A DNA stretch of 64,000 bases, from contig CATQHZ020000001.1 of the NCBI GenBank assembly GCA_958296135.2, positions 320,001 through 384,000 of the forward strand, read 5' to 3'. Below the pieces are notes generated by a model. That model had not been told where the DNA came from and ran no database searches. It saw only the letters and a program-made list of their open reading frames with translations. Position numbers and translations under genes: made by a program. This document shows positions 22,246 to 62,456 of this stretch, in pieces. Position 1 is the stretch's first letter, and every line of letters begins with the position of its first letter. This stretch comes from an uncultured Poribacteria bacterium (lineage in GTDB: Bacteria > Poribacteria > WGA-4E > WGA-3G).

Positions 22246-24546
22246 ATGCACAAAAACAGCAACTGCTTGGCATTTATCTTCTTGCTACTTGCTATCACGC
22301 GCATCGGACTAGCCGACGAATCCGCGCTTAAAAACCCTGACGGGACATGGAAATGGACGAACCGGCTCATCCATGAAACAAGTCCCTATTTACAGCTTCA
22401 CGCGCACAATCCTGTAGACTGGTACCCGTGGGGCGATGAAGCACTCGCGCAGGCGAAAGCGGAGAACAAATTGATTTTCCTGTCTGTCGGCTATGCCACC
22501 TGCTATTGGTGCCACGTGATGGAACGCCAAGTCTTCTCAAATCCAGAAATCGCTAATCAGATGAACGCGGCGTTCATTAACATCAAGATCGACCGGGAGG
22601 AACGTCCAGACCTGGATGACATCTACATGACTGCAACGCAGCTCCTCATCGGCCGCGGCGGATGGCCGAACTCTGTCTTCCTCACCCCTGATTTAAAGCC
22701 GTTTTACGCCGGCACCTATTTCCCACCGACAGATATGCCGGGCAGACCGGGGTTCCCTACGATTTTAGAGGCAGTTCAGGAGGCGTGGACAACGCGGGAA
22801 TCGGAAGTCATCGCAGCGGCGGAACAACTCGTCGTGGCCATTGAAAACGCCACCAGCCGAAGGTTCATGTCGCTCTCCCCCGAACTCCCGAAGCGTGAAC
22901 TTATCACCGCCGCCATTGAGAAACTGCGCGGCACCTATAGCCAGAAATATGGTGGATTTGGCGGCGCGCCGAAGTTCCCAGAACCTGCTAACCTGGAGCT
23001 GCTCATCAGTGAATACGAACGCGCTTCGGATGCCGCCCTCCTAGAGATGGTAACCCACACGCTGGAGATGATGGCGCGCGGCGGAATCTATGACCAGGGC
23101 GGCGGCGGGTTCCATCGGTATGCTGTCGATGAAAAGTGGCTTGTCCCACACTTTGAGAAGATGCTCTACGACAACGCGCAACTCGCGAAAATCTATCTGC
23201 AAGTCTACGCGTTAACGAAAGAACCGCGCTATCAACGGATTGCTGAAGAGATTTTCACCTTTGTCGCCCGCGAGATGACAGCACCGGAAGGCGGATTTTA
23301 CGCCGCCTTGGATGCCGAAACCGATGCAGAAGAGGGAAAGTTCTATGTCTGGACAGCAGCGGAAATTGAGGGTATTCTCAAGAACAAGAACGCGAAGGCG
23401 TTCGCCAAGGTCTATGGATTAAACAAAGGCCCCAACTTTGAGGGCAAAAATGTCTTGTATGTCCCCACTGGGATAGGAGAGGCAGAAATTGCCGCGGTTG
23501 CTACTGAACGTGAAGCACTTCTCGCCGCGCGTTCGTTGCGCGAACGTCCGCTTTTGGACACAAAAATTATCGTCAGTTGGAACGGTCTGATGATAGACGC
23601 GCTCGCGAAGGGATATGAAGTGCTTGGAGACGAACGGTATCTCAATGCCGCGCAGAAAGCCGCTGAATTTATCCTAATCGCACTGAAACAACCAAACGGA
23701 CAATTGTGGCATACCTATACCGCCGGTGTCGCCAAATATGATGGGTATCTCGACGACTACGCCTTTTTCGTGCGCGGTTTGCTCAGCTTGTATCACGTGA
23801 CAAGCGAAACCCGTTGGCTGCGCGAGGCGCGAGAACTTACGGATACGATGATAGAACGCTTCTGGGACGACAAAAACGGCGGCTTCTATTTCACGCAGGC
23901 AGACGCGCAACACCTCATCGTCCGGACGAAAAAGCCGTTTGATGCCGCGCTGCCTTCCGGCAACGCCGTTGCTGTCCACAATTTTTTAACGCTAGGGGAT
24001 GCTTATCGGAACCACACTGAACAAACCCTGGTCAGTTTTCGTGCGGCGATGGAACAGCATCCGACCTCTTTCACGCACACTCTCTTCGCGCTGAATCGCT
24101 ATTTATCAGGCAGTGCGCGCTTTCAAAGCACGCCTACGGATGAAGTAGTCTCCGCAATAGCGACAATGAAACGCGTTGATGAACAAGGGTTTGAGGTAGA
24201 AGTAGCACTTAAAATTAAGGAGAGGTGGCACATTAACGCGAATCCGACTGCGCGCTTGCAAAGCGCGCCGCTAATTCCGACAACCCTCACCGTGGACGCA
24301 GATGCACCCGTCGAGATTGTCGCGGTGGCATACCCGAAAGGGATCTCGGCGCAATTCGCCTTCAGCGAAGAACCTTTGACAATCTATGAAGGCGAACTGA
24401 TAATTTCCGTTCAATTGAAACGTAAACCGGTGGTAGAAGAAACCTCCCGGGCGCAATTCTTCACGCTGAATCTCACTTATCAACCGTGCAATGAGACAGC
24501 GTGTTTACTGCCGCAGGTGCTTGACATCCCGATAGAATTCCCGTAA
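22246..24546 (+). CDS. YyaL/SSP411 (DUF255) thioredoxin-domain protein with C-terminal DsbD-N-like domain
   Basis: [43 protein letters not shown]; tail WHINAN...[10 protein letters not shown]. Confidence 0.9.
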
Positions 24547-24601
24547 ATACACAATTGTCAGGGCGGATGTCGTTCATATCCACCCGTGTATCGCAACGCT
24601 C

Positions 24602-25522
24602 ATGATGTCGCCAACAAACCACACAATTACTGCAATTACCGGCATTAAAGTCGGCCACGCCACCAATCCCACTGCCAGAACCGGTTGCACCGTCATCCTC
24701 TGTGAAGAAAGTGCGACAGCAGGCGTTGATGTGCGCGGCTCTGCCCCCGGCACGCGGGAGACAGAGGCTATTCGCCCCGGCCGCCTCGTCCAAAAAGCTC
24801 ACGCCGTATTGCTGACCGGCGGCAGTGCCTTCGGGCTAGATGCAGCAAGCGGTGTCGTCCAATACCTTGAGGAACGAAACGTCGGGTTTCTGGCAGGACC
24901 TGTACGCGTCCCGATTGTCCCCGCCGCCGTGATTTTCGACTTGGGGGTAGGCGACGCGAGGGTGCGGCCAGACCGGCAGATGGGATATGACGCATGCCTT
25001 AATGCCTCCGACGAACTTGTGCCGATGGGACCTGTCGGTGCAGGAACAGGGGCCACCGTCGGCAAGGGACCCAGAGTAGAGGCATCTCCTGGTGGCATCG
25101 GTTCGGCGTGTCGGCAACTCACCGATGGGCTGCTTGTCGGTGCGATTATGGTAGTGAATGCCCTCGGTAACGTCGTGCATCCGAAGACCGGGGAGATTGT
25201 CGCAGGAGCGAAGGAAAACGGCGCATTCGTGGATATTACCGAACGATTATTGGGGGCAGAACTTTTCGCGGGGACAAACACCACTATTGGCGTGATTGCG
25301 ACAAACGCCGCCCTCTCGCCTGCGGAAGTGACGAAAGTGGCAGAGATGGGGCACGATGGCCTCGCGCGTGCCATTCGGCCTGCACACACAATGTTCGATG
25401 GCGATACGCTCTTCGCGCTCTCCATCGGCACGCATACAAGCGATGTCAACACGGTGGGCATCCTCGCCGCAGAAGTTGTCGCTGAGGCAATTGTAAAAGC
25501 GGTTACCTCTCCTTTCCTTTAA
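24602..25522 (+). CDS. P1/S58 family peptidase (DmpA-like)
   Basis: GVDVRGSAPGTRET, LTGGSAFGL, NTTIGV, PAHTMFDGDT. Confidence 0.92.
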   Translation: MMSPTNHTITAITGIKVGHATNPTARTGCTVILCEESATAGVDVRGSAPGTRETEAIRPGRLVQKAHAVLLTGGSAFGLDAASGVVQYLEERNVGFLAGPVRVPIVPAAVIFDLGVGDARVRPDRQMGYDACLNASDELVPMGPVGAGTGATVGKGPRVEASPGGIGSACRQLTDGLLVGAIMVVNALGNVVHPKTGEIVAGAKENGAFVDITERLLGAELFAGTNTTIGVIATNAALSPAEVTKVAEMGHDGLARAIRPAHTMFDGDTLFALSIGTHTSDVNTVGILAAEVVAEAIVKAVTSPFL

Positions 25523-25541
25523 CGAAATCTTCCTATTTCTC

Positions 25542-26389
25542 GTCGCGCGAGGGCCGTTACGCCGAAACGTTGTCATCTCTGCAGCCTCGTTGCAGAGATG
25601 TCCACTGTCCCCCGCAATCCCTGCAAGCGTTACCGTAGCGCGAGGGCCGTTACGCCGAAACGTTGTCATATCTGCAGCCTCGTTGCAGAGATGTCCACTG
25701 TCCCTCGTGGGCACCCAACCTAAACGAAAAACAGCCCCGGAACCGTCGCGCGAGGGCCGTTACGCCGAAACGTTGTCATCTCTGCAGCCTCGTTGCAGAG
25801 ATGTCCACTGTCCCTCGCGAGTCCTTGGACCGAACGAAGAACCTCCCTTGAACCGTAGCGCGAGGGCCCGGCGATCGCTAATCGCCGAGGGTTCCCCTCG
25901 CGATCTCCCGACTAAACGAAAAACGTCCGCAGCCCCCGGGTTTCGGTCTTGTCTGCGACGATCGATGGATGGCGAGGCACAGGACCTCGCCCTACGGTTT
26001 GAGAGGCATTTTTAGTCCCCGTCGCGCGAAGGCCTGTCCCCCGCAATCCCTGCAAGTGTTACCGTAGCGCGGTGGCCTGTCCCTCGCGAGCCCTCAACCT
26101 AAACGAAGAACCTCCCTTGAACCGTAGCGCGAGGGCCTGTCCCTCGCGATCTCCCGACCTGAACGAAAAACCTCCCTTGAACCGTAGCGCGAGGGCCTGT
26201 CCCTCGCGATCTCCCGACCTGAACGAAGAACCTCCCTTGAACCGTAGCGCGAGGGCCTGTCCCTCGCGATCTCCCGACCTGAACGAAGAACCTCCCTTGA
26301 ACCGTAGCGCGAGGGCCTGTCTCCCGCGATGCTGTTTCTGTCTGAATTCAGACAGACATAGGATTGCGCGGTTTCCAACCGCGCCTACG
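25542..26389. repeat. BIME-like mosaic array of about 11 family A REP units plus one family B; includes four 60-bp tandem units (26102-26329)
   Basis: Units at 25542, 25635, 25745 (cargo 1), 25855 (cargo 2), ~25970 reverse, 26021, 26064, 26124, 26184, 26244, 26304. Confidence 0.92.
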
Positions 26390-26396
26390 AAACTGC

Positions 26397-33860: not shown

Positions 33861-34633
33861 TGCTTGGTTTCCGCCGCTACTCCCTCGCGCTCACGGTGCT
33901 TCTCGCTAGTTTCTTGTCGTGGATAATATATCTCTTGCTAACGCGCGCGAAATTGGGTTCGCCTGCGGAATGTTTTGCCTTCGCGCAAGTGTGCGTTGTG
34001 CTTCTGGCGGCACCTTATCTCGCCGCCTGCGCGAGCCGTACTAAAGTGGTAACGGGCTCAGGCAAACCCATTCTACTAACACTCAGCCCCATCTCAGCAG
34101 GGAACCTTCTCTTAACGCAGCTCGTCACAAGTCAGATGCCGCTCTTGTGCTGGGCGTTTTTATCAACAAGTCTCCTTTTCTTCGTAACGGAGCTGCCGTT
34201 AGTGAAGGCGTTACAGCTGCTCGCCGTGCTCGGGATTTACAGTTTTTCGGCGGGGGCTGTCGGGATGTGGGGTGCGAAGGTTTTTCGGGACACCTTCTTC
34301 GGCGCAGAATTCGCCTATCTCCTATGGGGCGCAACCATTGGCAGTATGTTTTTACTGATACCTTTAGAACGTTATATGGGCAACGTTCAACCGATAATTC
34401 CGCTGGTTCTCCACGCGAATCCGCTGATTGCCGTGTGCGCGATTTTGGGGGAGACAGACATCTTCAGGACCCCGGTGCTCTACGAGTTAACGCCGATTCC
34501 ATCATATCTTTTCGCCTATCCGCCATGGTATCTCGTGTGTTTCTGGCAGGTATTAATCGGGGGAATCTGTCTATTTGGAATTACAAAAAATTCACCAAAA
34601 CTGGCAAGAAAAGACAACGTCTTTTCGGCCTGA
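33860..34633 (+). CDS. Integral membrane protein (ABC-2 permease-like)
   Basis: Multiple hydrophobic helices, NP motif; start coupled to upstream stop (TAATG). Confidence 0.6.
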   Translation: MLGFRRYSLALTVLLASFLSWIIYLLLTRAKLGSPAECFAFAQVCVVLLAAPYLAACASRTKVVTGSGKPILLTLSPISAGNLLLTQLVTSQMPLLCWAFLSTSLLFFVTELPLVKALQLLAVLGIYSFSAGAVGMWGAKVFRDTFFGAEFAYLLWGATIGSMFLLIPLERYMGNVQPIIPLVLHANPLIAVCAILGETDIFRTPVLYELTPIPSYLFAYPPWYLVCFWQVLIGGICLFGITKNSPKLARKDNVFSA

Positions 34634-34691
34634 GAAGACAACCTTTCACATCACAACAGCAGCCAAACAACCGAAAGGAAATACAAAAAAC

Positions 34692-36119
34692 ATGGCTAGG
34701 ACAGAACAACCTATCATTAGCATTTCGGGTATCCGCGGCAAAGTCGGCGTTTCGTTGGATGCGCAGCTCATCACACAGTTTGCGACAGCTTTCGGCACGT
34801 TTGTGGGCGGCAGAACGGTAGTTATCGGCAGAGATTCTCGGACGTCTAGTCCGATGCTCCGGCACGCGGTGCTTGCCGGGCTTTTCGCCACCGGGTGTCG
34901 CGTGATTGACGTTGGGCTCTGTCCGACACCCACCATTCTGCTGATGGCGAAGGCACTTGACGCGCAAGGGTGCGTTACCATCACCGCCAGTCACAACCCC
35001 GTAGAGTGGAACGGTATTGAGTTTGCATCGGCATCCGGAAGGCTTTTAACGCAGGCGGAACGCGACGCATTCGCGCGCATCTATGAATCCGAAGATTTCG
35101 CGCTCGCACCATGGAACGAACAAGGACGGCTAGAAACGTGCAGCGATGCCACGGCGTATCATCTCACGAAGATTTTGAGTTCTCCTTGGATTGAACAAGA
35201 TTTCATCCGAAAAGCGAACCTCAAGGTGGTGCTGGATTGCGGCAACGGCGCAGGAAGCGTTATTAGCCCGACGCTCTTGCGAGAGCTCGGCTGTCGGGTT
35301 GTCGAACTCAACTGTGTTCCTGATGGACACTTCCGTCGGCCTGCTGAACCCACGCCTGATGCGATAGGTGAACTCTGTGAAACGGTGCGCGCCACCCACG
35401 CCGATATCGGGTTTGCGCACGATGGCGATGCCGACAGGCTCGTCATTGTAACGGAACGCGGGGTGCCGCTGAGCGGCGAATGGACGCTCGCGCTCATCAC
35501 CGATTTTATCCTCAACCAGACGAACGGAGATGTCGTCGCAACGGTATCCACAAGTCGGATGTTAGATGATGTCGCCGCGCAACACGGCGTTATGCTCCAT
35601 CGCACGAAAGTCGGTGTCGGCTGGGTGGTGGAGAAAATGCACGAGGTGAACGCGGTTATCGGCGGCGAAGGCACCGGCGGCGTTATTTATCCCAACATCC
35701 ACCACACCACCGATGGCATTGCCTCGATTGCGGCGATTGTGCAACGTCTGGCTGAAGCGCGCTTGAAAAGCGCGTCTACCGGCGATGTGGATGGCACGGT
35801 GACAGCACTGATGGAAAGCCTGCCGCACTATGAGATGTGCAGGAAGAAACTGGAGATACCTTCGCAAGAAATCGCAACGCAGGTAATTGCGCGCGCCGAA
35901 GAAATGTATGCCGGTAGGCAAGCCCTACAGCACTTGAAACTTGACTTGACAGACGGCATCAAACGCATCTGGGACGACAGATGGGTGAACATCCGCAAAT
36001 CGGGAACCGAGCCTGTCATTCGGGTGTTCAGCGAAGCACCTACAGCTGCAGCAGCGGCGGCTCTGTGTGACGAGACGCTTGAGACACTGAAAATGTTAAT
36101 GAAACAAATCCGCCGTTAA
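34692..36119 (+). CDS. glmM: Phosphoglucosamine mutase / phosphomannomutase
   Basis: SISGIRG, TASHNP, DGDADR, GGEGTGG, RKSGTEP. Confidence 0.85.
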   Translation: MARTEQPIISISGIRGKVGVSLDAQLITQFATAFGTFVGGRTVVIGRDSRTSSPMLRHAVLAGLFATGCRVIDVGLCPTPTILLMAKALDAQGCVTITASHNPVEWNGIEFASASGRLLTQAERDAFARIYESEDFALAPWNEQGRLETCSDATAYHLTKILSSPWIEQDFIRKANLKVVLDCGNGAGSVISPTLLRELGCRVVELNCVPDGHFRRPAEPTPDAIGELCETVRATHADIGFAHDGDADRLVIVTERGVPLSGEWTLALITDFILNQTNGDVVATVSTSRMLDDVAAQHGVMLHRTKVGVGWVVEKMHEVNAVIGGEGTGGVIYPNIHHTTDGIASIAAIVQRLAEARLKSASTGDVDGTVTALMESLPHYEMCRKKLEIPSQEIATQVIARAEEMYAGRQALQHLKLDLTDGIKRIWDDRWVNIRKSGTEPVIRVFSEAPTAAAAAALCDETLETLKMLMKQIRR

Positions 36120-40193: not shown

Positions 40194-40223
40194 TTGACTT
40201 GCAATGCATTTTCGTGGTATAAT
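40194..40223 (+). promoter_or_regulatory. Promoter of glnS-gltX
   Basis: TTGACT, 18 nt, TGgTATAAT. Confidence 0.65.
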
Positions 40224-40259
40224 ATCGCGCGTAAACCTTTTTTATCACGGAGACTTGTT

Positions 40260-41996
40260 ATGAAAAATTCGGACGCTGCTCCAAAACATAACACCGAAAA
40301 CGGGGACAAACCGGCCGCCAAAGCCAATCTCGACTTCATCCGCCAAGAAGTTGAGAAGGACCTGGGGGCAAACGCCTATGGTGGGAAGGTGCATACCCGA
40401 TTCCCGCCGGAACCGAGCGGCTACCTCCACATCGGGCACGCCAAAGCCATCTGTATTAACTTCCTGATCGCCGAAGACTACGGCGGACTTTACAACCTCC
40501 GCTTCGACGACAGCAATCCCATCACGGAAGAACACGAGTATGTGGAGGCGATTAAGCGCGATGTCCGCTGGCTCGGTTTTGACTGGGAAGAACGCGAATA
40601 CTACGCCTCCGATTACTTTGAGACGCTCTATGGCTACGCTATTAAACTCATCGAAAAGGGAAAGGCGTATGTCTGCGATTTGACACCCGACGAGATGCGC
40701 GGCTATCGCGGCACCCTGGTCAAACCCGGTAAAGAGAGTCCCCACCGAAACCGTTCTGTTGAGGAGAATCTGGCGTTATTCAGAGGCATGCGCGCCGGAG
40801 AATTTCCAGACGGGGCGCGCACCCTTCGCGCCAAAATTGATATGGCGAGCCCCAATTTCAACATGCGCGACCCGGTGATGTATCGCGTACTCCGCGCGCC
40901 GCATTACCGATACGGCACCCAGTGGTGCATCTATCCCACCTACGATTTCACGCACGGACAATCGGATTCCATCGAGGGCATCACGCATTCGCTATGCGAC
41001 GTGCAATTTGAAGACCATCGTCCCCTTTACGACTGGTTTTTAGAGGCATTGGAGATTTACCAGCCTCGGCAGATAGAATTTGCTCGCCTGAATCTGACGC
41101 ACACGGTATTGGGCAAACGGAAATTGAGGGTGCTTGTGCAGGAGGGGCACGTCAACGGCTGGGATGATCCGCGCCTGCCGACGCTCGCCGGGATGCGCCG
41201 TCGGGGTTATACCCCGGAGGCGATTCGCGATTTCTGCAACCGCATCGGCGTTTCAAAGGCGGACAATCTCATTGAGATGAGTCAGTTGGAGTATTCCATC
41301 AGGAACGATTTGAATCAGCGAGCACCGCGCGTCATGGCAGTGCTGAACCCAGTCAAAGTGGTTATTGACAACTATCCGGAGGGACAGGTAGAATGGCTGG
41401 CGGCTGAAAACAACCCGGAAGATGAGCACGCTGGCACGCGGCAAATCCCGTTTTCGCGCGAACTTTACATTGAACGCGAAGATTTTATGGAAGACCCGCC
41501 TCGGAAATTCTTCCGATTGGCCCCCGGACGCGAGGTGCGCCTCAAGCATGCCTACTACCTCACATGCGAAAGCATCGTGAAAGACCCGGGCACCGGCGAC
41601 ATCGTTGAAATCCACTGCACTTATGACCCGGGCACACGAGGCGGCTGGTCTGCCGATGGCCGCAGGGTGCGCGGCACCTTGCACTGGGTATCCGCCGTGC
41701 ACGCTGTTGATGCCGAAACGCGCCTCTATGAGTCACTTTTCACGGAACGTGAACCGGAGAACGCCGCCGACGGCACCAACTGGACGAAATTCATCAATCC
41801 CAACTCCTTGGAAGTTTTAACCGGGTGCAAGGTTGAACCGAGCCTCGTCGGCGTGTCGCACGGAACGCGGTATCAGTTCCTCCGGATAGGCTATTTCTGC
41901 GTAGATCCGGATACAACAGTGGATAAGTTGGTATTCAACCGCACCGTCCCGCTGCGAGATAGCTGGGCGAAAATTCAGCGAGGACAGAAGAAATGA
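40260..41996 (+). CDS. glnS: Glutamine--tRNA ligase
   Basis: [52 protein letters not shown]. Confidence 0.96.
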
Positions 41997-43552
41997 ACCC
42001 ACACTCAGTAGGAGAGCCCTCCCGGTCTCGACAGCAGAACACAGTAGGAGAGCCCTCCCGGTCTCGACATCAGAACCCAGTAGGAGAGACCTCCCGGTCT
42101 CGACAGCAGATCAGAGTCCGGATGGCCCCTTCACCGACCGGATTCTTACACATCGGCAGCGCGCGTACCGCGTTATTCAATTGGTTATTTGCCCGACATC
42201 ACAGCGGGACGTTCATCCTCCGCATCGACGACACCGATGCCGCCCGCTCCACCGATGAATCGATGCGCGAGATTTACGATTCACTGCGGTGGCTAGGGCT
42301 CGATTGGGACGAAGGCGGCGAGAAAGGCGGCCCGCACGCACCTTATGTCCAATCGGAACGGCGAGACATTTATGAAACGCACGTTCAGCGGTTGCTAGAG
42401 AGTGGCCACGCCTACCCCTGCTACTGCACACAGGAAGAGTTGGATGCGATTCGCGCGCACTCCCGTGCCGAGAAGCAAAATCGCGCCTACGATGGGCGGT
42501 GCCGACATCTCACATCGGTAGACAAGGAACATCTCGCCGCCAAAGGCAGAAAACCGACGGTGCGTATCAAAATGCCGGACGAACCAATCCGTGTAGTGGA
42601 CATCGTCCTCGGCACGCGAGACATCGACCCGGGCACGCTGGAAGACGAGGTAATCGTCCGTTCAAACGGCATGCCGAGTTACAATCTAACGTCGATTATC
42701 GACGACGCGGAGATGCAGATAACGCACGTGATTCGGGGAACGGAGCATCTCAACAACACGCCGAAGCAGATTGCCATCGCGAACGCGCTCGGTTTAAATG
42801 TGCCGCAGTTCGCGCATATCCCGCTGGTTTTGGATAATACCGGGAGGAAACTGAGCAAACGGCACCACGGAGAGCTCGTCGCTGTCAGTCGGTATCGCGA
42901 GGAGGGGTATCTCCCCGAGGCGATGCTGAACTTCGTCGCGCGACTCGGCTGGTCCTTCGATGACAAACAGGAGATTTTCTCGGTTGAGGAACTCATCGAA
43001 AAGTTTGATTTGGCCCGGGTCGGCAAGAGCGGCAGTGTTTTTGACATTAAGAAACTGGATTGGCTCAACACGCACTACATCGGCGAGTTGGATATTTCGG
43101 CGCGCACGGATGTTGTCATGCCGTTCTGGGAGAAGGCAGGGTTTGATGTGGCAGCCGAACCGCGCGAACGGTTGGAAAGCATTGTTACCGCAGTCGGTGA
43201 ACGCCTCACAAAATTGCAGGACATTATTCCGCAGACCGGCTATTTCTTCACCGCTCCGTCTGAATACGAACCGAAAGCTGTCAAGAAGTGGTGGAAGAAG
43301 GACGCGCTGGACATCTTGACAGCCCTCGGTGCCGTTTTGGCAGCGGTAGAACCGTTTGAGCTGGAAACAGTCGAGTCGGTAATCTGGCAATACACGGAGG
43401 AGCATAACATCAAGCGCGTTGTTGCGATGCAGACACTGCGGATTGCGCTGACAGGCACATCGTTCGGGCCGAGTCTGTTTGACATTCTCGTCTTGCTTGG
43501 GAGAGATGAAGTGCTCACTCGAATTCAGAAGGCGATTCAGTTTCTTCAATAA
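41993..43552 (+). CDS. gltX: Glutamate--tRNA ligase with N-terminal REP-derived 12-aa x3 repeat
   Basis: [21 protein letters not shown] zinc motif, KLSKR; ATGA overlap with glnS. Confidence 0.95.
42006..42109 (+). repeat. Three tandem 36-bp REP family D units inside gltX
   Basis: CAGTAGGAGAG(C/A)CCTCCCGGTCTCGACA at 42006, 42042, 42078. Confidence 0.9.
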
Positions 43553-49950: not shown

Positions 49951-52900
49951 CTAGCGCATCGTAACGCGCTCAGGCTTTTCTAACTTCCGACGGAGGACGA
50001 TACCCCACTGACCCACAACCCACAGCGCACTCCCATCTTTCGCACGCGTGATGACATAGAGGGCATTGTCTATATCGGTGTGCTCCTGTTCCCACGTCTC
50101 CCCGCCATCAGTTGAATGGAGAATCATCCCCTTTTCACCGACGACGTAGAGTTCCTCTTCGGAGAGTGCCAAAATGCCGTGGAGCGTTTTGGTAGTCCCG
50201 CTTGATTTCGCCTCCCACGTAAACCCGCCATCGGTGGTTTTCAAAACGATGCCGTGCAGGCCGACTGCCCACCCTTTGCGCTTGGCAATAAAGGAGACAG
50301 CGTTCAGATCATAGCCGGTCTGCGTTTCATGGAATCGCCAATACTCGCCGCCGTTGATGGTGCGTTGGATGATGCCGCTATGTCCCACCGCCCAACCAAG
50401 TGGTGCGAACTTCATGTCAATGTGCACCAGATCCTTGCCGGTAGTGGTGCGTTGCGGTGTCCACGTCGGACCGCCGTCTTTATTATGGATGATTTGTCCA
50501 TCGCTGCCGGCCGCCCATCCTTCGGAGAACTTGCCGAAGTCAATGGCGTTCATGGCGAAACTGCGAGGCGGATCTCCCTCCATAAAAGGCGGTCTTTCCG
50601 GCGTATCCCCCGCTGTCCACGTCTGTCCATCGGTGGTATAAAGCACCGTTCCATCGCGTTGCATTGCCCATCCCCACTTCGGTTCAAGACTCGTAAAGTG
50701 GACACCGATGAGTCGTTGGCGCGTTTGACCCCGCAGCGATTTCCAATTCTGGCCCCCGTCTTGCGTTTCCAAAAGCACGCCGTTGTCCCCGGCGATCCAG
50801 CCGTTCTGTTCATCGTAGAAGAGGACATCTCGGAAGTTATCCACCTGCGCTTCGCCGAGTTGGCGTTCCCAGGTTTGTCCGCCATCCGCGGTGTGGTAAA
50901 TTTTCCCCGCGCTGCCGACTGCCCACGCTTGTTGTGCGTCTAAGAAGTAGACGCTGGCAATGTCCTGTCCGCCGCGTCGCCGCCGCTGCGGTTCAGGCGG
51001 AGAGACCTCCTGGTCCCGATTGGCCGTAGGCGGATCCTCCCGGTCCCGATTCCGTTGCGCGTTGTCAGATGGAAGTTCTCCCTCTGGCGCGAAGCGTCCG
51101 GGAAGCTGCGTCTGCGTGCGCAGTTGATTTTGGATGGCCTCCGCCGGGTCTTCGTCGTATTGCAACGTGGGGCCTTCGGATTCTTCAGAGGCCGCGGAAT
51201 CACGAGGGACAGGCCCTCGCGCTACGTTGTCGGAGGCGTTTTCGGGTTGTCCCATCGCGAGCACTTGGCCGGGGATAGAGACAGGAATTGCCTTCCAATT
51301 TTCTCCTTGACTATCAGTAATGAAGGCGTTGCCGCCCGCGCCGAATGCCCACGCGTCTGTATGTGAACGGAACGTAACGCGTCGGATGCCCCGCGCTCCT
51401 GACTTCGCCGTTCGCAATTTCCACGTCTTTCCGCCATCTGTCGTCAACAGCGAGTTGCCGTTGCCTAGAATTACCCAACCGTTCGTCGTGTCCGCAAAAT
51501 GGACAGCAACACCGGCCTGGTTAGTCTTGGCCTGAATTTTCCAATAATCGCCGCCATCAATAGTGTGAAGGATAAAGCCGCCATCTCTGCGCTGCGGCGT
51601 GACGGCCCATCCCTCCTGACTGTTAATGAAGTGGATATCCGTAATCGCTTGCATCGTCGTGCCGGTTTTCTGAAGTTTCCACGTCTTTCCGCCATCTGTC
51701 GTGTGTAAGGTTTGTCCAATGTCCGCGCCGAGCCATCCCTCTTGCGGATTGAGGAATTGCACCGTGCTAATCCGGCGCAGGTTTTGCAGCGTCTTCCGGA
51801 CAACCTGCCACGTCTTCCCCGCGTTTTCCGTGCGGAGCAAAACACCAGAGCCAAAAATCCAACCGTGTTTGTCATCAACGAATTCAACTTGGCGCAGATT
51901 TTCACTCACGCCGCTGTGTTGTGGCAGCCATGTTTGCCCGCCATCCATTGTATGCGCAATGACACCGCTAGAACCGACAGCCCAACCGTGCTGTGCATCG
52001 ACGAAATACGTATCGGAGAAATTCGTCTGCCACGTCGCTTGACGGATAATATCCCAATGATACACGACAGGTTCAAGAGGTTCCTCTTCTGTCTCTGCCT
52101 CCGCCACTTCCTCTGCGACAGGCGGCAACTTCGCTGGGAGCTCCGCCTCTTCTACCGAATACCGCATCGCGATGCCGCCCTTACCCACCGCGACGACTCC
52201 CTGCGGCGAGAGTGCCAATCCGTAAAGATCATTATCTGTGCCGCTCTCTTGCAGTTCCCACTTCGCGCCGCCGTTCGTCGTGGTGAGCATCATGCCGTTA
52301 TCACCGACAATCAAGCCGTGCTGCGTATCGGCAAAATAGAGTTTGTTCAGATTTTCTTGGGTGCCGCTTCGTTGAAAATTCCACTTCGCGCCGCCGTTTT
52401 TGGTGAACAAAATCTCGCCGAATTGCCCGACAATCCAGCCGGTGTTTTCATCGGCAAAATAGACAGCGTAGAGCTCGTTGTAGGTGCCGGTGGTTTGATG
52501 ACTCCAGGTCAGTCCACCATCGCGGGTGGTAAGGCAGATGCCGGGCCATCCGATTGCCCAGCCTCGCTTATCATTGAGGAAGTAAACCCCTTTGAGCATG
52601 TGAAATTCGCCGGGGGTTTGTTGCACCCAAGTTTCGCCGCCATCTGCAGTGTGCAAAATCGTGCTGAGGTCACCGACAATCCACCCTTTCTTTGGACTCA
52701 TAAAGTGAACGGAGCGGAGGGTGTAGCCGCCACCGCCAAACTGGCGTTCCCAATTCGCGCCGCCATCGTTGGTATGCACAATAAGCCCGCGTTCGCCGAC
52801 TGCCCAGCCGTGCTTATCGGTGGCAAAATAGATGCTCCAAATGCCGTCCCAGATGTCGGTATCCAGTTCGTTCCACGTTTGGCCGCCGTCGTTACTCATC

Positions 52901-53985
52901 GCCATCGTGCCGCGCCTGCCGACAGCAATGGCGCGGTTCGCATCGGTAAATTGGACATTCTGCAGGTCATTCGCCGTAGTGCCGCTGGTTATCGTCCACG
53001 TCGCGCCGGCATCTTCGGTGTGCAAAATCGTGCCGTACCAGCCGACGGCCCACGCCTCTTTGCGGGAAGTCCACTGCACCGCGGTGAGATTATTTTCGGT
53101 GCCGCTCTCGATTAACTGCCAATTGTCGCCGCCATCTTCGGTGCGCGTGATAAACCCGACATCCGCGACAGCGATGCCGTAATTCTCATCGGTGAAGTGG
53201 ATGCTGTTGACAGTATCGCGGACATGTCCGTTGATGAGGGGGATGCGGCTATCTTGGCGTTCCCAGTTCGCGCCGCCGGTGGTAGTGTGAAAAATAGAGC
53301 CATCGCTGCCAGCAAGCCAGCCTTCATTCTCACTAATGAAGAAGATTTTTTTGTTATCGTTAATCATCCGGTCGCGTTCGCCTTCAAAGCGGTTGCTCTG
53401 CTCGCGCCATTCTTTGCCAGCGGTTTCAGTATGAAAAATCCGGTCATATTCGCCGACAACCCATCCGCGCGAATCGTCCACGAACCAGATGCCGTTGAGC
53501 GGGAATTCGCTGACATATTCGTAGCGTTTCCATTCCTTCCCGCCGTTTTCGGTATAAAGCACATCAGCATCTTCACCGACGATCCAACCCTCTTTAGAAT
53601 TGGCGAAGAAGACATCTCGGAGCATGGCGTATGTTCCACTGCGCTGCAGCGTCCAATGTCGCCCTCCGTCATCCGTCGTGGCGATGAGGCCCTCGTCCCC
53701 GACAGCCCATCCATACTGCGCGTTGGTAAAATAGACTGCCTTGAAATCGCCGGTTACGTCAACTTCTTGTTTTTGCCACGTTTTTCCACCATCTTTCGTA
53801 TGGATGATGAGGCCTTCCAATCCGACGCTCCACCCCTGCTTCGCGTTGACGAAGTGGATATCGGTAAAGTGCGTCTCCCAGTCTGCCTTCCGCGTTGCTT
53901 CTCTCCGCACGCATCCATTGAGAAGAGTCAGCGCGCAAATGAGAAGCACGATGGCTAGAGGCGTTGCATAGTTCTTAGTTTTCAT
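49951..53985 (-). CDS. Large YCF48/BNR-repeat beta-propeller lipoprotein
   Basis: Lipobox LNGC; more than 25 repeats of F.d...GW.VG..G.I.hT.DGG.tW. Confidence 0.92.
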   Translation of the reverse strand: MKTKNYATPLAIVLLICALTLLNGCVRREATRKADWETHFTDIHFVNAKQGWSVGLEGLIIHTKDGGKTWQKQEVDVTGDFKAVYFTNAQYGWAVGDEGLIATTDDGGRHWTLQRSGTYAMLRDVFFANSKEGWIVGEDADVLYTENGGKEWKRYEYVSEFPLNGIWFVDDSRGWVVGEYDRIFHTETAGKEWREQSNRFEGERDRMINDNKKIFFISENEGWLAGSDGSIFHTTTGGANWERQDSRIPLINGHVRDTVNSIHFTDENYGIAVADVGFITRTEDGGDNWQLIESGTENNLTAVQWTSRKEAWAVGWYGTILHTEDAGATWTITSGTTANDLQNVQFTDANRAIAVGRRGTMAMSNDGGQTWNELDTDIWDGIWSIYFATDKHGWAVGERGLIVHTNDGGANWERQFGGGGYTLRSVHFMSPKKGWIVGDLSTILHTADGGETWVQQTPGEFHMLKGVYFLNDKRGWAIGWPGICLTTRDGGLTWSHQTTGTYNELYAVYFADENTGWIVGQFGEILFTKNGGAKWNFQRSGTQENLNKLYFADTQHGLIVGDNGMMLTTTNGGAKWELQESGTDNDLYGLALSPQGVVAVGKGGIAMRYSVEEAELPAKLPPVAEEVAEAETEEEPLEPVVYHWDIIRQATWQTNFSDTYFVDAQHGWAVGSSGVIAHTMDGGQTWLPQHSGVSENLRQVEFVDDKHGWIFGSGVLLRTENAGKTWQVVRKTLQNLRRISTVQFLNPQEGWLGADIGQTLHTTDGGKTWKLQKTGTTMQAITDIHFINSQEGWAVTPQRRDGGFILHTIDGGDYWKIQAKTNQAGVAVHFADTTNGWVILGNGNSLLTTDGGKTWKLRTAKSGARGIRRVTFRSHTDAWAFGAGGNAFITDSQGENWKAIPVSIPGQVLAMGQPENASDNVARGPVPRDSAASEESEGPTLQYDEDPAEAIQNQLRTQTQLPGRFAPEGELPSDNAQRNRDREDPPTANRDQEVSPPEPQRRRRGGQDIASVYFLDAQQAWAVGSAGKIYHTADGGQTWERQLGEAQVDNFRDVLFYDEQNGWIAGDNGVLLETQDGGQNWKSLRGQTRQRLIGVHFTSLEPKWGWAMQRDGTVLYTTDGQTWTAGDTPERPPFMEGDPPRSFAMNAIDFGKFSEGWAAGSDGQIIHNKDGGPTWTPQRTTTGKDLVHIDMKFAPLGWAVGHSGIIQRTINGGEYWRFHETQTGYDLNAVSFIAKRKGWAVGLHGIVLKTTDGGFTWEAKSSGTTKTLHGILALSEEELYVVGEKGMILHSTDGGETWEQEHTDIDNALYVITRAKDGSALWVVGQWGIVLRRKLEKPERVTMR

Positions 53986-54254
53986 TTGTTCTCTCCGTTC
54001 TGTTAACCCGTGGGCGCGGTTTGGAACCGCGCCCACGGGATTCGTTCAGCGTCAGTCCTTAAGCGGCGTGCTGCGGGACAGGCCATCAATCTACATTGCA
54101 ATTCGTTCGGCGTGCCGGACTCGGACATCGCTCTCTGCTTCTTGGCGGCCCTCCATCTTGCCGCGAATCCAGCCTATCTCGCGTTCTATCGATTCAAAAT
54201 GCTGCTGCGTCTCAGTTCGTCCGGTCGGAGGGTAGGCACCGCACTACATAACCT

Positions 54255-60110: not shown

Positions 60111-60241
60111 GTTCCCCGTATGGCGAGGGAAACCTGTCTCTCGCCATGCTCTCATCTTGTAAGGGCGGATGTCCATATCCGCCCGCGCGTTTCATTATAA
60201 CGGCGGATGTCGATATCCGTCCCACCGAGGAGAACGCAGCC

Positions 60242-60928
60242 ATGCGTCTTATCTTAGTCGGATGCTTGCTAATGCTACTCATTCCCAGCTCGTTACTGGC
60301 AGAATCCCCCGATGCCGCTGCTGTCCGGCCGTCACCTGTCTTACGGACGTTTTTCGCGAAGCATTTCCGATTTTCATCCGTGCAAGCCTCCCTCTTCTCA
60401 TACAAACCGGAGCTCGGCAATTTAACCGATGTCCTGCGAAACGCTGGGGTGTCCGAAATCCCGGCGGTTTTGATGCCGATAGTATCCGTTGTTTTTTCGC
60501 ACACAGTTGAGTTAGATTCCCGGCTGGAAATCGGTTATTGGCAGATGCAGCTGGACATTCCGCCGCCCACATCAGCGACGCTCACAACGACGCTAGTGCC
60601 AGTTTCGTATCAGCTGCTCTATCGGCCCGTGCTGCTATCGGAATTCGTGCCGGTTTATTTCGGGGGCGGCATCGGCTTTCTCGGCGCGAATTTCGGCGGC
60701 AGCGCGATTCCCCTTATTAGTCAACAAGGCATCTCATTTGATGGCAGCTCTTCGGGGTTAACCGGATACGTTGTCCTCGGTGCTGAACTGTTTCGCTGGG
60801 AGGACACTCTGGCTTTTCATTTAGAGTTAAAGCGAGTTCTCAAGACGGTAGAAACGACGGGGGATGTGCCGCTCAACGTGATTCTAGATGGCACTGCGAT
60901 TGGGCTCGGGGTCAGCATGTGGTTTTAG
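60242..60928 (+). CDS. Hypothetical outer-membrane beta-barrel protein
   Basis: Signal peptide, PVYFGGGIG, C-terminal SMWF. Confidence 0.65.
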   Translation: MRLILVGCLLMLLIPSSLLAESPDAAAVRPSPVLRTFFAKHFRFSSVQASLFSYKPELGNLTDVLRNAGVSEIPAVLMPIVSVVFSHTVELDSRLEIGYWQMQLDIPPPTSATLTTTLVPVSYQLLYRPVLLSEFVPVYFGGGIGFLGANFGGSAIPLISQQGISFDGSSSGLTGYVVLGAELFRWEDTLAFHLELKRVLKTVETTGDVPLNVILDGTAIGLGVSMWF

Positions 60929-60938
60929 CGGCATTGTT

Positions 60939-62456
60939 GTGAACTATACAAAAACCGTGAAACATGGCAAACACATTCTCCCCATTCTCCTCTGCATCGG
61001 GCTTGGCGCAATCATCGGACGCTACGCTGGTACACCACTCCCACTCCTCTGCCTGCTCGCCGTGACAGGCACCTTTGTCTTCATTGACATGGAACTCGCT
61101 GTCTATGTGCTGTTAATCGCGCTCCCGTTTTCATTCCGTTACATCCTGCCAGGCCGCTTTGAAATTCAGACACCGACAGAACCGCTGTTAGGCATGCTGG
61201 TCGCGGTTTACTGGGTGAAAAAGAGTGTCGCGTTCTCGCAAGAAAAGCGCGATGCCAAAGCGCGCCTACCGGTAGCAGAAACGTTTCCATTCCTCGCGCC
61301 GCTCTGTGGCTATATTTTTATTACGTTCCTATCCGCAATCAACACACCAGACCTGCTCGGAACCCTCAAGGGTGCGACGCGCGCGACTGCCTATATGATG
61401 TTCAGTTTGGTGGTGTATGCGGTGTTTAGTCCGCGGGCCATCGGGATGTTGAGGGACAGGCCCTCAACCTACAGAATTGGGAACGTGTTGGGGGACAGGC
61501 CCTCAACCTACGGAGTGAGGAAGTTGAAGCGGCTCTTAATCGCCACCTTTCCCGCCGCTGCCATCGCCGTTATCTGGACGATCTTCGTCCTTATCTACCA
61601 CATTGACGAGTGGCAGTGGACAAGCGCGTATCGGCATGCACCGTTTACCAACTACTCCGTTTACGGCTCCTTCACAGCCGTATTTTTCTTAATCTGTCTC
61701 AGCCGACTGCTCTTTGATACTACGCCTTACGATAAGGTGCTGTGGTTCGGATGGTTCGCCTGCTTCGCGCTTGGGCTCATTATGTGCTTTTCGAGAGGCG
61801 TGTGGCTTTCGGTTATCGTTGCAGTGGGGTTTATGTTGTTGCAAGTCGGCAATCGCAACAAGGAGAACGCGCGGACAAGTGGCGTGACGCAGAAAAAGAT
61901 TCTGTTCCTCGGAGCCGCCTGCCTAATATTATTGGTATGCCTCAATCTGCCGGGTGTTTACAGCATCGTCATTGAACGGATTGCCACCACGGTGGACACT
62001 AGTTATGCCTCAAATCAGGCGCGGCTCCTCCGATGGGCACAAGCGGTGACGATTTTCCTTGAAAACCCCATTTTGGGCAAAGGTTACGGGGCGTTCGCCA
62101 TGCTTTACGAGGAAGATGTCGCGCTCGTGGGAACATACACGGCGCAGTTTCAACTCGGCGCGCACAGCGAATATCTGCAGATACTTGCGGAATTAGGCAT
62201 TATTGGCTTCATCGCATGGATATGGCTCAACCTCGCTTTCTTAAGATACGGGTTTCGCGCACTCAAACGGATGAACAGCCAGGCAGACAGCTTTTACCGT
62301 GCCACCGTCATCGGGCTCATGGCGGCAGAAATCTCGCTGATGGTGCATTTTATCGTAAACAACCTCCTAAACGGCGATGCCATCGGCATTCCGTTCTGGG
62401 GCATTTATGGACTATTGCCGGCTGTCGTGCAGATGCACGCGCGGCAGAAGGAATAA
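60939..62456 (+). CDS. O-antigen ligase (Wzy_C) family protein
   Basis: FSRGVW, PILGKGYG, AHSEYLQILAELGIIG. Confidence 0.9.
   Translation: MNYTKTVKHGKHILPILLCIGLGAIIGRYAGTPLPLLCLLAVTGTFVFIDMELAVYVLLIALPFSFRYILPGRFEIQTPTEPLLGMLVAVYWVKKSVAFSQEKRDAKARLPVAETFPFLAPLCGYIFITFLSAINTPDLLGTLKGATRATAYMMFSLVVYAVFSPRAIGMLRDRPSTYRIGNVLGDRPSTYGVRKLKRLLIATFPAAAIAVIWTIFVLIYHIDEWQWTSAYRHAPFTNYSVYGSFTAVFFLICLSRLLFDTTPYDKVLWFGWFACFALGLIMCFSRGVWLSVIVAVGFMLLQVGNRNKENARTSGVTQKKILFLGAACLILLVCLNLPGVYSIVIERIATTVDTSYASNQARLLRWAQAVTIFLENPILGKGYGAFAMLYEEDVALVGTYTAQFQLGAHSEYLQILAELGIIGFIAWIWLNLAFLRYGFRALKRMNSQADSFYRATVIGLMAAEISLMVHFIVNNLLNGDAIGIPFWGIYGLLPAVVQMHARQKE

What the first reader, a model, noticed from the sequence alone, without database searches (positions are those of the whole stretch)
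24115..61511. Recurrent in-frame colonisation of proteins by several REP families
Seen: within 64 kb at least four intact genes contain REP-derived codons from three families: YyaL (B), gltX (D x3), YCF48 protein (A) and O-antigen ligase (A-like x2). All lie in termini, linkers or probable loops, and the tandem periods are multiples of three (36 and 39 bp). Established precedent: Rickettsia palindromic elements; REPs are otherwise mostly extragenic. Inference: a genome-wide repeat-driven route to new peptide sequence, or to coding-region RNA hairpins.
Basis: partly seen in the sequence, partly recalled or inferred. Interest (0 to 1): 0.8.

Follow-up and report, generated by a model that had tools for sequence, protein, structure and literature searches.

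The report
REP repeats translated inside working genes
Short selfish hairpin repeats (REPs) that normally sit between genes have landed, in frame, inside well over a hundred intact genes of this bacterium, adding small floppy peptide segments; this is real and extensive, but the same kind of event is already known from Rickettsia and Opitutus.

Summary
All four named genes (YyaL-like, gltX, YCF48-like BNR protein, Wzy_C O-antigen ligase) carry REP-derived codons in intact frames. A fifth window gene, a phosphoglucomutase, does too.

Ortholog alignments show genus-specific insertions whose lengths are multiples of three. They lie in an N-terminal leader, an inter-domain linker and loops. The YyaL linker site is the weak case.

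Genome-wide I found 2748 GTAG-headed REP copies in six families. Of these, 2264 are intergenic and 187 lie strictly inside 144 genes. Codon-shuffled controls gave 0-1 hits. In 6 of 6 randomly sampled REP-bearing genes that I tested, the REP codons fall in gaps of orthologs from other genera. Three of these inserts are absent even from a sister species.

[quoted passage not shown] Families A and D are abundant only in this genus.

My reading is that these are tolerated, translated selfish DNA. This is a new member of a known kind: Rickettsia RPEs, and the intragenic GTAG REPs of Opitutus terrae (Di Nocera 2013). Earlier notes of this scan report the same phenomenon in several other genomes. Translation is inferred, because no RNA or proteome data were available.

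The parts
22177..24546 (+). YyaL-like gene (thioredoxin DUF255 domain, alpha/alpha toroid, DsbD_N-like C-terminal domain); host of two REP-B copies
   Evidence: ORF. Pfam PF03190 at 3e-71 and PF11412. Orthologs have 762-835 aa open frames.
24114..24139 (-). REP-B copy 1 in YyaL, read as [10 protein letters not shown], in the linker before the C-terminal domain
   Evidence: nhmmer E 0.007. It lies in a linker of variable length, so a clean insertion is not shown. The sister species is 15 nt shorter here. It falls in a pLDDT<50 coil, residues 616-625 of the model.
24249..24269 (-). REP-B copy 2 in YyaL, read as TARLQSAP, in a loop of the C-terminal beta domain
   Evidence: nhmmer E 0.007. It is +9 nt here and +27 nt in the sister species, against 12 of 12 orthologs from other genera. 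It falls in the low-confidence coil 662-666.
34575..36119 (+). Phosphoglucomutase/phosphomannomutase gene; a fifth REP-bearing gene in the window
   Evidence: Pfam PGM_PMM_I-IV (protein 12).
35755..35782 (-). REP-B copy read as ARLKSASTGD, between PGM domains III and IV
   Evidence: nhmmer E 0.011. It is a 10-aa insert present in this species and its sister, and absent in 4 of 4 other genera.
40194..41996 (+). GlnRS-type synthetase gene whose TGA stop overlaps the gltX ATG (ATGA)
   Evidence: PF00749, PF03950, PF20974.
41993..43552 (+). gltX (glutamyl-tRNA synthetase) with a 38-residue REP-built leader before the catalytic domain
   Evidence: Pfam tRNA-synt_1c starts at residue 39. The ATGA start is conserved in all 11 relatives read.
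42006..42117 (+). Three tandem REP-D units (36-nt period) read as VGEPSRSR / VGEPSRSR / VGETSRSR
   Evidence: TRF; nhmmer E 4e-7 to 2e-6. There is no ATG, GTG or TTG between 41993 and the conserved IRVRM strand. The two sister species carry 2 and 3 copies in frame. Nine relatives from other genera have an 8-21 aa leader without these units.
49951..54036 (-). YCF48-like BNR-repeat protein gene (1361 aa as the longest ORF)
   Evidence: Pfam PSII_BNR 6e-126. Orthologs have 1334-1417 aa open frames.
51198..51227 (-). REP-A copy read as VARGPVPRD in the acidic inter-domain linker
   Evidence: nhmmer E 3e-6. One copy here, 2 in one sister species and 3 in the other (51-nt period). None in 13 of 13 orthologs from other genera.
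50994..51049 (+). Two D-like copies 30 nt apart on the strand opposite the gene, read as NRDREDPPTANRDQEVSPP
   Evidence: Repeat family D14. Only the first copy reaches nhmmer E 4e-4. The region is +4 aa against other genera. This is a weaker case.
54007..54039 (.). Palindromic REP-B at the longest-ORF start of the YCF48-like gene; probably 5' of the real start (Met 18)
   Evidence: This is an inference; the start was not tested.
60888..62456 (+). Wzy_C / O-antigen-ligase-family membrane protein gene
   Evidence: Pfam PF04932 1e-20.
61245..61272 (-). REP-B copy read as KRDAKARLPV
   Evidence: nhmmer E 0.0017. It is +15 nt against other genera and is decayed in both sister species.
61446..61514 (-). 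Two REP-A-subfamily copies (39-nt spacing) read as LRDRPSTY...GDRPSTY, in a short loop between two predicted membrane helices
   Evidence: Each holds an exact 19-mer of a 34-copy subfamily. The segment is 132 nt, against 51 nt in an ortholog from another genus. The sister species have 153 and 183 nt, and the longer one carries a nested intact REP-A. Residues ~184-210 are unaligned in the hits of the 27 genomes from other genera that have a match and gapped in 10 of 10 aligned orthologs (L034 dropped because the wrong ORF was extracted).

Best explanation
The genome, and its genus, holds a large active population of GTAG-headed REP elements: about 2750 copies in six families, with two REP-associated tyrosine transposase genes sitting in REP arrays. 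New copies arise by transposase-dependent spread, by tandem duplication of REP-plus-spacer units, and by re-insertion next to existing copies.

Insertions that hit genes are almost always lost. A minority survives where three conditions hold. The added length is a multiple of three. The reading frame through the element has no stop. The site tolerates extra residues, as an N-terminal leader, an inter-domain linker, or a surface or inter-helix loop does.

Surviving copies are transcribed and translated with the host gene as short Pro/Gly/Arg/Ser/Ala-rich peptides. They then decay, expand or are replaced independently in each species. They are best seen as tolerated passengers (selfish DNA in coding genes) that incidentally create new linker and loop sequence, not as recruited functional modules.

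Shown: presence, in-frame state, insertion relative to orthologs, genus restriction, the link to the transposase genes, and frame bias. Inferred: translation, neutrality, and the mechanism of spread.
For: (1) Element identity. Consensus sequences begin with GTAG followed by a hairpin. There are 2748 non-redundant hits, 2264 of them intergenic. Density is 3.19 per kb between genes against 0.085 per kb in genes.

(2) Transposase link. One Y1 transposase gene matches NCBIfam 'REP-associated tyrosine transposase' at 93 bits (cut-off 80) and is flanked on both sides by D/D3 arrays. The second scores 57 bits and is flanked by A/F arrays.

(3) Not chance. Codon-shuffled genomes gave 0-1 in-CDS hits per family at E<=0.1, against 17-125 real hits.

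(4) Insertions. For gltX, the YCF48-like gene, Wzy_C and YyaL site 2, the REP codons coincide with gaps in orthologs from other genera. The same holds for 6 of 6 REP-bearing genes tested from a random sample of 20: RsgA, PfkB, Fmt, MnmE, RimK and PGM. Three of these inserts are absent from the sister species.

(5) Real host genes. 17 of 20 randomly sampled REP-bearing genes have Pfam families at E<=1e-5. The flanks of the 187 copies fall into 160 unrelated groups, so paralogy does not inflate the count.

(6) Frame constraint. 36 of 36 REP tandem arrays inside genes have periods divisible by 3, against 98 of 242 outside genes. Every length difference read at DNA level is a multiple of 3.

(7) Frame bias, which argues for translation. 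B copies are read in one frame in 47 of 65 cases. D copies never use one of their five open frames (0 of 49; chi-square p 0.004). A copies favour the VARGPVPR frame in 21 of 47 cases (p 0.0002).

(8) gltX. The ATGA start overlapping the upstream stop is conserved in all 11 relatives read. No alternative start precedes the conserved IRVRM strand. The frame stays open in three species with different copy numbers.

(9) Genus restriction matches the genus-specific inserts. The A-head pattern occurs 865, 874 and 4251 times in the three species of the genus, and 0-5 times in each of 28 other genomes. The D-head pattern occurs 302, 120 and 1353 times, against 0-3.
Against: There is no direct evidence of transcription or translation.

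The gene calls are my own crude dicodon caller. The counts of 367 and 187 are therefore estimates, and 3 of 20 sampled hosts have no Pfam family.

YyaL site 1 sits in a linker of variable length and is not a clean insertion. The YCF48-like D-like copies and the Wzy_C B site are short and decayed.

No transposase gene was found for families B and E.

Intragenic copies of A, D and E are as close to consensus, and fold as well, as intergenic copies. Simple neutral decay does not predict this. It could instead mean recent insertion, gene conversion, or selection on the hairpin.

In the PfkB kinase the REP array goes with loss of 19 residues that all five orthologs keep. Not every insert need be harmless.
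Confidence: 0.8

Rival explanations
1. The intragenic copies are kept because the hairpin itself has a function inside genes. It might act in mRNA (stability, ribosome pausing between domains, RNase processing) or in DNA (a binding site for gyrase, a nucleoid protein or the transposase). On this view the peptides are a by-product.
For: Intragenic A, D and E copies are as well preserved as intergenic ones. For family A the median profile score is 27.0 against 25.5 bits, and the median DNA folding energy is -10.5 against -9.0 kcal/mol. Intact consensus-like copies persist at the same site in three species whose flanking protein sequence has diverged 10-15%. Many inserts lie at domain boundaries.
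Against: Copy number and exact position differ between sister species: 1, 2 and 3 copies in the YCF48-like gene, and independent sites in Fmt. Three of six sampled inserts are species-specific. Host genes are functionally unrelated. B copies inside genes are significantly more degraded than intergenic ones. Frame bias points to selection on the peptide. Recent insertion or gene conversion explains the good preservation equally well.
Confidence: 0.1
2. Part of the signal is an artefact of ORF choice. REPs near gene starts, including the gltX array, would lie in untranslated leaders or intercistronic spacers, with translation starting downstream.
For: Di Nocera et al. 2013 argue this for most N-terminal REPs in Pseudomonas, Citrobacter and Stenotrophomonas (passages read). 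An ATG lies at the Met of the [10 protein letters not shown] strand in gltX. The REP-B at 54007-54039 is such a case. 75 of 367 in-CDS hits lie within 150 nt of my predicted starts.
Against: For gltX, a start at the internal Met would remove the IRVR residues, which are conserved in all 12 sequences. The upstream ATGA overlap is conserved. The leader stays open and in frame in three species with different insert lengths. The 187 'strict' copies are at least 150 nt from both gene ends and have coding-like flanks in the same frame.
Confidence: 0.07
3. The weaker matches (YyaL B copies, YCF48-like D-like copies, Wzy_C B copy) are chance or convergent GC-rich palindromes in variable linkers, not REP descendants.
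For: E-values are only 0.002-0.01. YyaL site 1 and the D-like copies show little or no length excess over orthologs.
Against: Shuffled controls gave 0 B hits in genes at E<=0.1 in three trials. Both YyaL copies use the frame that 47 of 65 intragenic B copies use. YyaL site 2 and the Wzy_C B site are longer than in all orthologs from other genera, and only in this genus.
Confidence: 0.03

Closest known systems
Intragenic GTAG-tagged REPs, especially Opitutus terrae families GTAG-17/18/19 (Di Nocera, De Gregorio & Rocco 2013, BMC Genomics 14:522, PMC3733652). I read passages and part 1 of Additional file 3.
   Same: GTAG-headed 20-40 nt hairpin repeats of several families in one genome. Singles, dimers and clusters lie inside ORFs for known proteins, tRNA synthetases among them. 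They encode 7-50 extra residues rich in G, P, A, R, S and T. The authors suggest neutral insertion in linkers and loops. The elements are associated with RAYT genes flanked by REPs (REPtrons).
   Different: The lineage and the REP sequences differ. By my estimate the count here is higher: 187 strictly internal copies in 144 genes, against about 70 O. terrae rows in part 1 of their table. Here many copies form same-orientation tandem arrays whose periods are multiples of three. Comparison of three species shows copy-number change, nested re-insertion, and independent hits in the same gene.
Rickettsia palindromic elements, RPE (Ogata et al. 2000, Science 290:347). Cited from the reference lists and text of PMC3733652 and PMC3184786; I did not read the paper itself.
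   Same: Palindromic selfish repeats inserted in frame in intact and often essential genes. They are absent from orthologs and are thought to sit on protein surfaces.
   Different: RPE-1 is about 100-150 bp. The short RPE-4 and RPE-6 belong to the CGTC-tagged class, for which no dedicated transposase is known (PMC3733652). Here the elements are 26-40 nt, GTAG-tagged and have RAYT genes. The genome is a 5-Mb one, not a reduced intracellular one.
Classical REP/BIME and REPIN-RAYT systems of Escherichia coli and Pseudomonas. Named from my own knowledge and from the text of PMC3733652.
   Same: A GTAG head plus an imperfect palindrome. Hundreds to thousands of copies, mostly between genes. A single-copy tyrosine transposase gene flanked by its own REPs.
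   Different: Those populations are almost wholly extragenic. N-terminal 'intragenic' cases there are thought to be annotation errors (PMC3733652). Here about 7% of copies are strictly internal to genes.
MITE-type repeats fused in frame to genes: ERIC/YPAL/RU-3 in enterobacteria, and RUP/BOX/SPRITE in pneumococcus (review by Delihas 2011, PMC3184786; passages read).
   Same: Small non-autonomous repeats with open frames that extend genes or sit inside them.
   Different: MITEs are 70-400 bp, have terminal inverted repeats and derive from IS elements. They mostly extend gene ends.

Membership tests
GTAG-tagged REP / RAYT (REPtron) system | Short (20-40 nt) imperfect palindrome able to form a hairpin | tested here: met
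   Family consensus sequences are 26-42 nt. Median DNA folding energy of 34-nt windows is -4.8 to -10.8 kcal/mol, against -2.4 for random coding 34-mers.
GTAG-tagged REP / RAYT (REPtron) system | Conserved GTAG tetranucleotide at one end | tested here: met
   Present in the consensus of A, B (both ends), D, D3 and F. Family E has GTAA in that place.
GTAG-tagged REP / RAYT (REPtron) system | High copy number, dispersed, predominantly extragenic | tested here: met
   2748 copies, 2264 of them intergenic. Density between genes is 37 times that within genes.
GTAG-tagged REP / RAYT (REPtron) system | RAYT gene (IS200/IS605-like Y1 transposase subgroup) flanked by its cognate REPs | tested here: met
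   C1:3734397-3734780 scores 93.2 bits on NF047646 (cut-off 80) and has D/D3 arrays on both sides. C1:4791065-4791610 scores only 57.3 bits and has A/F arrays on both sides. No such gene was found for B or E.
GTAG-tagged REP / RAYT (REPtron) system | RAYT binds and cleaves its REPs, or REPs are mobile | not testable with these tools
   There is only indirect support: species-specific insertions and a five-fold difference in copy number between sister species.
In-frame intragenic palindromic elements (RPE / intragenic REP type) | The element lies inside an ORF that stays intact and is conserved | tested here: met
   Full-length open frames in this genome and in orthologs. 17 of 20 sampled hosts have Pfam families.
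In-frame intragenic palindromic elements (RPE / intragenic REP type) | The element is absent at that site from orthologs in relatives (an insertion, not ancestral sequence) | tested here: met
   Met for gltX, the YCF48-like A site, Wzy_C and YyaL site 2, and for 6 of 6 sampled genes. Not met cleanly for YyaL site 1.
In-frame intragenic palindromic elements (RPE / intragenic REP type) | Insert length is a multiple of three and the frame through it has no stop | tested here: met
   36 of 36 in-gene arrays. All DNA-level comparisons agree.
In-frame intragenic palindromic elements (RPE / intragenic REP type) | Located in surface loops, linkers or termini of the protein | tested here: inconclusive
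   In the YyaL model (mean pLDDT 68) both sites fall in pLDDT<50 coils. The Wzy_C model is too poor to use (mean pLDDT 44.9). For the other genes the only evidence is alignment gaps between conserved blocks.
In-frame intragenic palindromic elements (RPE / intragenic REP type) | The insert is translated in vivo | not testable with these tools
   No RNA run was listed and no proteome is at hand. Translation is inferred from frame conservation and frame bias.

The most novel reading that the evidence does not exclude
In this genus the REP population may not be merely tolerated in genes. It may be a standing, lineage-specific generator of linker and loop sequence that is actively renewed. Several observations fit this. 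Intragenic copies stay as intact as intergenic ones. The same protein sites are hit again, as with the nested REP in the Wzy_C loop and the 1, 2 and 3 copies in the YCF48-like linker. Retention is strongly frame-selective, with family B read in one frame in 47 of 65 cases. Essential genes (GluRS, ValRS, MnmE, RsgA, Fmt) carry species-specific inserts. If the hairpins are kept by selection or by transposase-driven gene conversion inside coding DNA, this would be a REP/RAYT system that lives partly within the proteome and shapes more than 3% of the genes. The sister species, with five times as many copies, would be a natural experiment.
Probability: 0.12. Interest if true: 0.65.

Novelty: new member of a known kind. 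Interest (0 to 1): 0.38.

Why it matters
This case shows that intragenic REPs can reach a substantial load outside Rickettsia and Opitutus. About 3.6% of my gene calls are affected, and five families contribute. Core translation genes are among the hosts.

The three sequenced species of the genus differ five-fold in REP load. Individual in-gene insertions are present in some and absent in others. This is a good setting for three tasks:
- dating insertions;
- reading target sites and working out how REPs spread;
- measuring which peptides and protein sites tolerate random insertions.

There is also a practical point. Gene callers and homology tools will place starts wrongly or split alignments at these sites. 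In the Wzy_C search every hit from another genus was split in two.

Tried and rejected
(1) Structure mapping of Wzy_C. AlphaFold2 with a 13-row alignment gave mean pLDDT 44.9, which is unusable. I draw no conclusion about the loop from it.

(2) RNA evidence. No RNA holder was listed. The four runs found are DNA-type contigs of one sample. Their unitigs span the YCF48-like and Wzy_C inserts without differences and break inside the gltX array, as short-read graphs do at repeats. This is not independent support.

(3) A different REP in the gltX leader of another genus. I tested the idea that the leader in L007 and L008 was colonised by a REP of its own. The 13-mer of that GTAG-bearing hairpin occurs only 2-3 times in those genomes (control 0-1), so the idea is rejected.

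(4) A D-like match in YyaL at 24431-24456 (73% to the reference copy). Orthologs have the same length there and it did not reach nhmmer E<=10. I treat it as chance.

(5) First k-mer census at 12-mers. The threshold was too loose and picked up common coding words. It was replaced by 13-mers, 14-mers and profiles. One search timed out and was rerun.

(6) Paralogy as the cause of the frame bias. Rejected: the flanks form 160 unrelated groups among 187 copies.

(7) Literature on these repeats in the presumed host group. A search for 'Poribacteria' plus 'palindromic' listed 15 of 31 papers, and none of those titles or abstract starts concerned REPs. I did not confirm the organism's taxonomy. 'Sponge symbiont' comes only from an earlier unchecked note.

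Full report
**What is in the window.**
- a YyaL-like protein (PF03190, with a DsbD_N-like C-terminal domain);
- glutamyl-tRNA synthetase (PF00749 and PF19269);
- a 1361-residue YCF48-like BNR-repeat protein (PF14870);
- a Wzy_C / O-antigen-ligase-family protein (PF04932).

Their translations contain the quoted peptides [16 protein letters not shown] and DRPSTY.

**The repeats are REPs.** A k-mer census of C1 found words present several hundred times. They resolve into six families, which I label A, B, D, D3, E and F. Each is 26-42 nt long and has a hairpin core. Five of the six carry a GTAG head, and B carries one at each end.

Profile searches with nhmmer, using profiles built from the genome's own copies, gave 2748 non-redundant hits at E<=0.1: A 1015, B 489, D 405, F 381, E 270, D3 188.

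The genome holds two Y1-transposase genes. One scores 93.2 bits on NCBIfam's REP-associated tyrosine transposase model (cut-off 80) and is flanked on both sides by D/D3 arrays. The other scores 57.3 bits and is flanked by A/F arrays. This is the REPtron arrangement. I found no such gene for B or E.

The A-head pattern occurs 865, 874 and 4251 times in the three species of the genus, and 0-5 times in each of 28 other genomes of the order. The D-head pattern occurs 302, 120 and 1353 times, against 0-3.

**Check of the four sites.**

*gltX.* Three D units with a 36-nt period lie at 42006-42117 (TRF; nhmmer E 4e-7 to 2e-6). They sit between the ATG at 41993 and the first strand of the catalytic domain; the Pfam match starts at residue 39.
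- The ATG overlaps the TGA of the upstream GlnRS-type gene as ATGA.
- That ATGA and the preceding codons are conserved in all 11 relatives read.
- The nine relatives from other genera have 8-21 residues between the start and [IV][10 protein letters not shown], none of them REP-D units.
- The two sister species carry 2 and 3 D units, always in frame.
- No ATG, GTG or TTG lies between 41993 and the conserved IRVR residues.

The array is therefore almost certainly translated.

*YCF48-like gene.* One A copy at 51198-51227 is read as VARGPVPRD in an acidic linker. The sister species have 2 copies and 3 copies (51-nt period). None of 13 orthologs from other genera has it. Two D-like copies at 50994-51049 are weaker.

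*Wzy_C.* Residues ~184-210 are encoded by two copies, 39 nt apart, of an A subfamily whose stem has compensating changes. Each copy holds an exact 19-mer found 34 times in the genome.
- The hits of the 27 genomes from other genera that have a match are split around this segment.
- 10 of 10 aligned orthologs have a gap there (L034 was dropped because my script extracted the wrong ORF).
- The segment is 132 nt here, 153 and 183 nt in the sister species, and 51 nt in an ortholog from another genus.
- The 183-nt version carries a nested, intact A copy in the other orientation.
- A B copy at 61245-61272 adds 15 nt.

*YyaL.* There are two B copies (24114-24139 and 24249-24269, E 0.007 each). Both are read in the frame that most intragenic B copies use. 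Site 2 lengthens a loop that is otherwise conserved, by 9 nt here and 27 nt in the sister species, against 12 of 12 orthologs from other genera. Site 1 lies in a linker whose length varies among all relatives, so a clean insertion is not shown. In an AlphaFold2 model (mean pLDDT 68.4) both sites fall in coil segments with pLDDT below 50.

*A fifth case.* A phosphoglucomutase gene has a B copy at 35755-35782. It forms a 10-residue insert between domains III and IV, shared with the sister species and absent in 4 of 4 other genera.

**Is it more than chance, and is it genome-wide?** I made my own gene calls with a dicodon model. It gave 3976 genes covering 85.7% of C1; predicted starts are unreliable.
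- Of the 2748 REP hits, 2264 are intergenic, 117 straddle a boundary and 367 lie inside calls.
- 187 copies in 144 genes are at least 150 nt from both gene ends and have coding-like flanks in the same frame.
- Three genomes with codons shuffled within genes gave 0-1 in-gene hits per family at E<=0.1, against 17-125 real hits.
- REP density is 3.19 per kb between genes and 0.085 per kb within them. REPs are thus strongly excluded from genes, and the intragenic ones are the survivors.
- Of 20 REP-bearing genes drawn at random from the 144, 17 have Pfam families at E<=1e-5. They include CstA, RsgA, a PfkB kinase, Fmt, RimK, ValRS and MnmE.
- For six of these I fetched orthologs from one sister species and from four other genera (three for Fmt, where the fourth ortholog was broken and I left it out). 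In 6 of 6 the REP-coded residues fall exactly in gaps of the sequences from other genera.
- In RsgA, Fmt and RimK the insert is also absent from the sister species. In Fmt the sister species has a different A insertion 14 residues away.
- The flanks of the 187 copies form 160 unrelated groups, so paralogy does not inflate the count.

**Evidence that the inserts are read as protein.**
- All 36 REP-containing tandem arrays inside gene calls have periods divisible by three, against 98 of 242 outside genes. This is partly built in, because an array that breaks the frame would not be called as a gene.
- Every length difference read at DNA level is a multiple of three.
- Frame use is uneven. B copies are read as ARL[EQK][ST]APT in 47 of 65 cases. 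D copies use four of their five open frames and never the fifth (0 of 49; chi-square p 0.004). A copies favour VARGPVPR in 21 of 47 cases (p 0.0002).

Uneven frame use is what selection on the encoded peptide would produce. Untranslated DNA should not show it.

**What speaks against a simple passenger model.** Intragenic A, D and E copies match their profiles and fold as well as intergenic copies do; only B copies are more degraded. Consensus-like copies also persist at the same site in three diverged species. This fits recent or repeated insertion, or gene conversion. It equally fits selection on the hairpin, and I cannot exclude that.

In the PfkB kinase the array goes with loss of 19 residues that all five orthologs keep. 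Some inserts may therefore be damaging.

No RNA run was listed, and DNA unitigs from one sample add no independent support. The Wzy_C model was unusable.

**Comparison with what is known.** Di Nocera, De Gregorio and Rocco (2013, PMC3733652) sorted REPs into GTAG- and CGTC-tagged superfamilies and devoted a section to intragenic REPs. I read passages of the paper and part 1 of Additional file 3. That table lists about 70 rows for Opitutus terrae from three GTAG families. The rows cover singles and dimers encoding 7-50 residues, and the host genes include helicases, UvrA, DNA ligase and dehydrogenase subunits. The text also names tRNA synthetases in other species. The authors propose neutral insertion into linkers and loops, and warn that N-terminal cases are often annotation errors.

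Rickettsia RPEs are the classical precedent. I know them here from citations in PMC3733652 and in Delihas 2011 (PMC3184786), and did not read the original paper. Earlier notes of this scan report in-frame REP-like hairpins in several other genomes, all filed under the same known kind. I did not test those claims.

**Verdict.** This is a new member of a known kind.

Its distinguishing points are scale (about 187 strictly internal copies, five families, 144 genes by my estimate), in-frame tandem arrays, and a three-species comparison that shows ongoing gain, expansion, nesting and decay, including inside core translation genes.

My searches found no description of this for the present lineage. 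They cover only the held library, and I did not confirm the organism's taxonomy.

Noticed in passing
window 5898-6096 and 25530-25831: Composite 93-110-nt REP-A units. The A hairpin's loop is replaced by a second, longer palindrome of about 50 nt. About 130-200 copies of that inner module occur genome-wide, which suggests nested element-in-element growth.
   Followed up: no
window 25530-26390: An 860-nt intergenic stretch made almost entirely of REP-A and REP-F copies, including a 60-nt-period array (26061-26330). Long spurious ORFs (120-141 aa) run through it.
   Followed up: no
window 46156-46294: A 45-nt tandem repeat (3.1 copies, 98% identical) next to REP copies. About 100 copies of this unit occur genome-wide. 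It is a different repeat type of unknown nature.
   Followed up: no
window 54279-55523: A multi-copy gene on the minus strand (414 aa as the longest ORF). It is covered by repeated 12-mers and by unitigs of much higher depth that carry variant letters, so it is probably an IS transposase.
   Followed up: no
genome G000, contigs C2-C4: Three small contigs (144, 17 and 15 kb) have G+C of 0.37, 0.67 and 0.60, against 0.54 for the main contig. They may be plasmids or contamination of the bin.
   Followed up: no
genome G000 contig C1 (position not looked up): A 30-nt unit present 73 times with non-conserved flanks looks like a CRISPR repeat.
   Followed up: no
G000:C1:476259-477305 (locus L067): The PfkB-family kinase carries three REP-A copies (60-nt period) and lacks 19 residues that all five orthologs keep just upstream of the array. 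The insertion may have damaged this gene.
   Followed up: partly
G002 (sister species), whole genome: The sister species has about five times as many REP-A heads (4251 against 865) and 4.5 times as many REP-D heads (1353 against 302) in a genome only 0.5 Mb larger.
   Followed up: no
loci L073 and L089 (Fmt genes of G000 and G002): Each of the two sister species has its own REP-A insertion in the C-terminal domain of methionyl-tRNA formyltransferase. The insertions are 14 residues apart and are read in different frames.
   Followed up: partly
genome-wide, intergenic REP arrays: REP tandem arrays outside my gene calls show a mild excess of periods divisible by three (98 of 242; binomial p 0.012). 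This could reflect unrecognised coding regions or arrays that began inside genes.
   Followed up: no
family B copies inside genes, genome-wide: The frame used by most intragenic B copies would contain the TAG of the first GTAG head if the full two-headed palindrome were present. The in-gene copies therefore lack or have lost that head.
   Followed up: no
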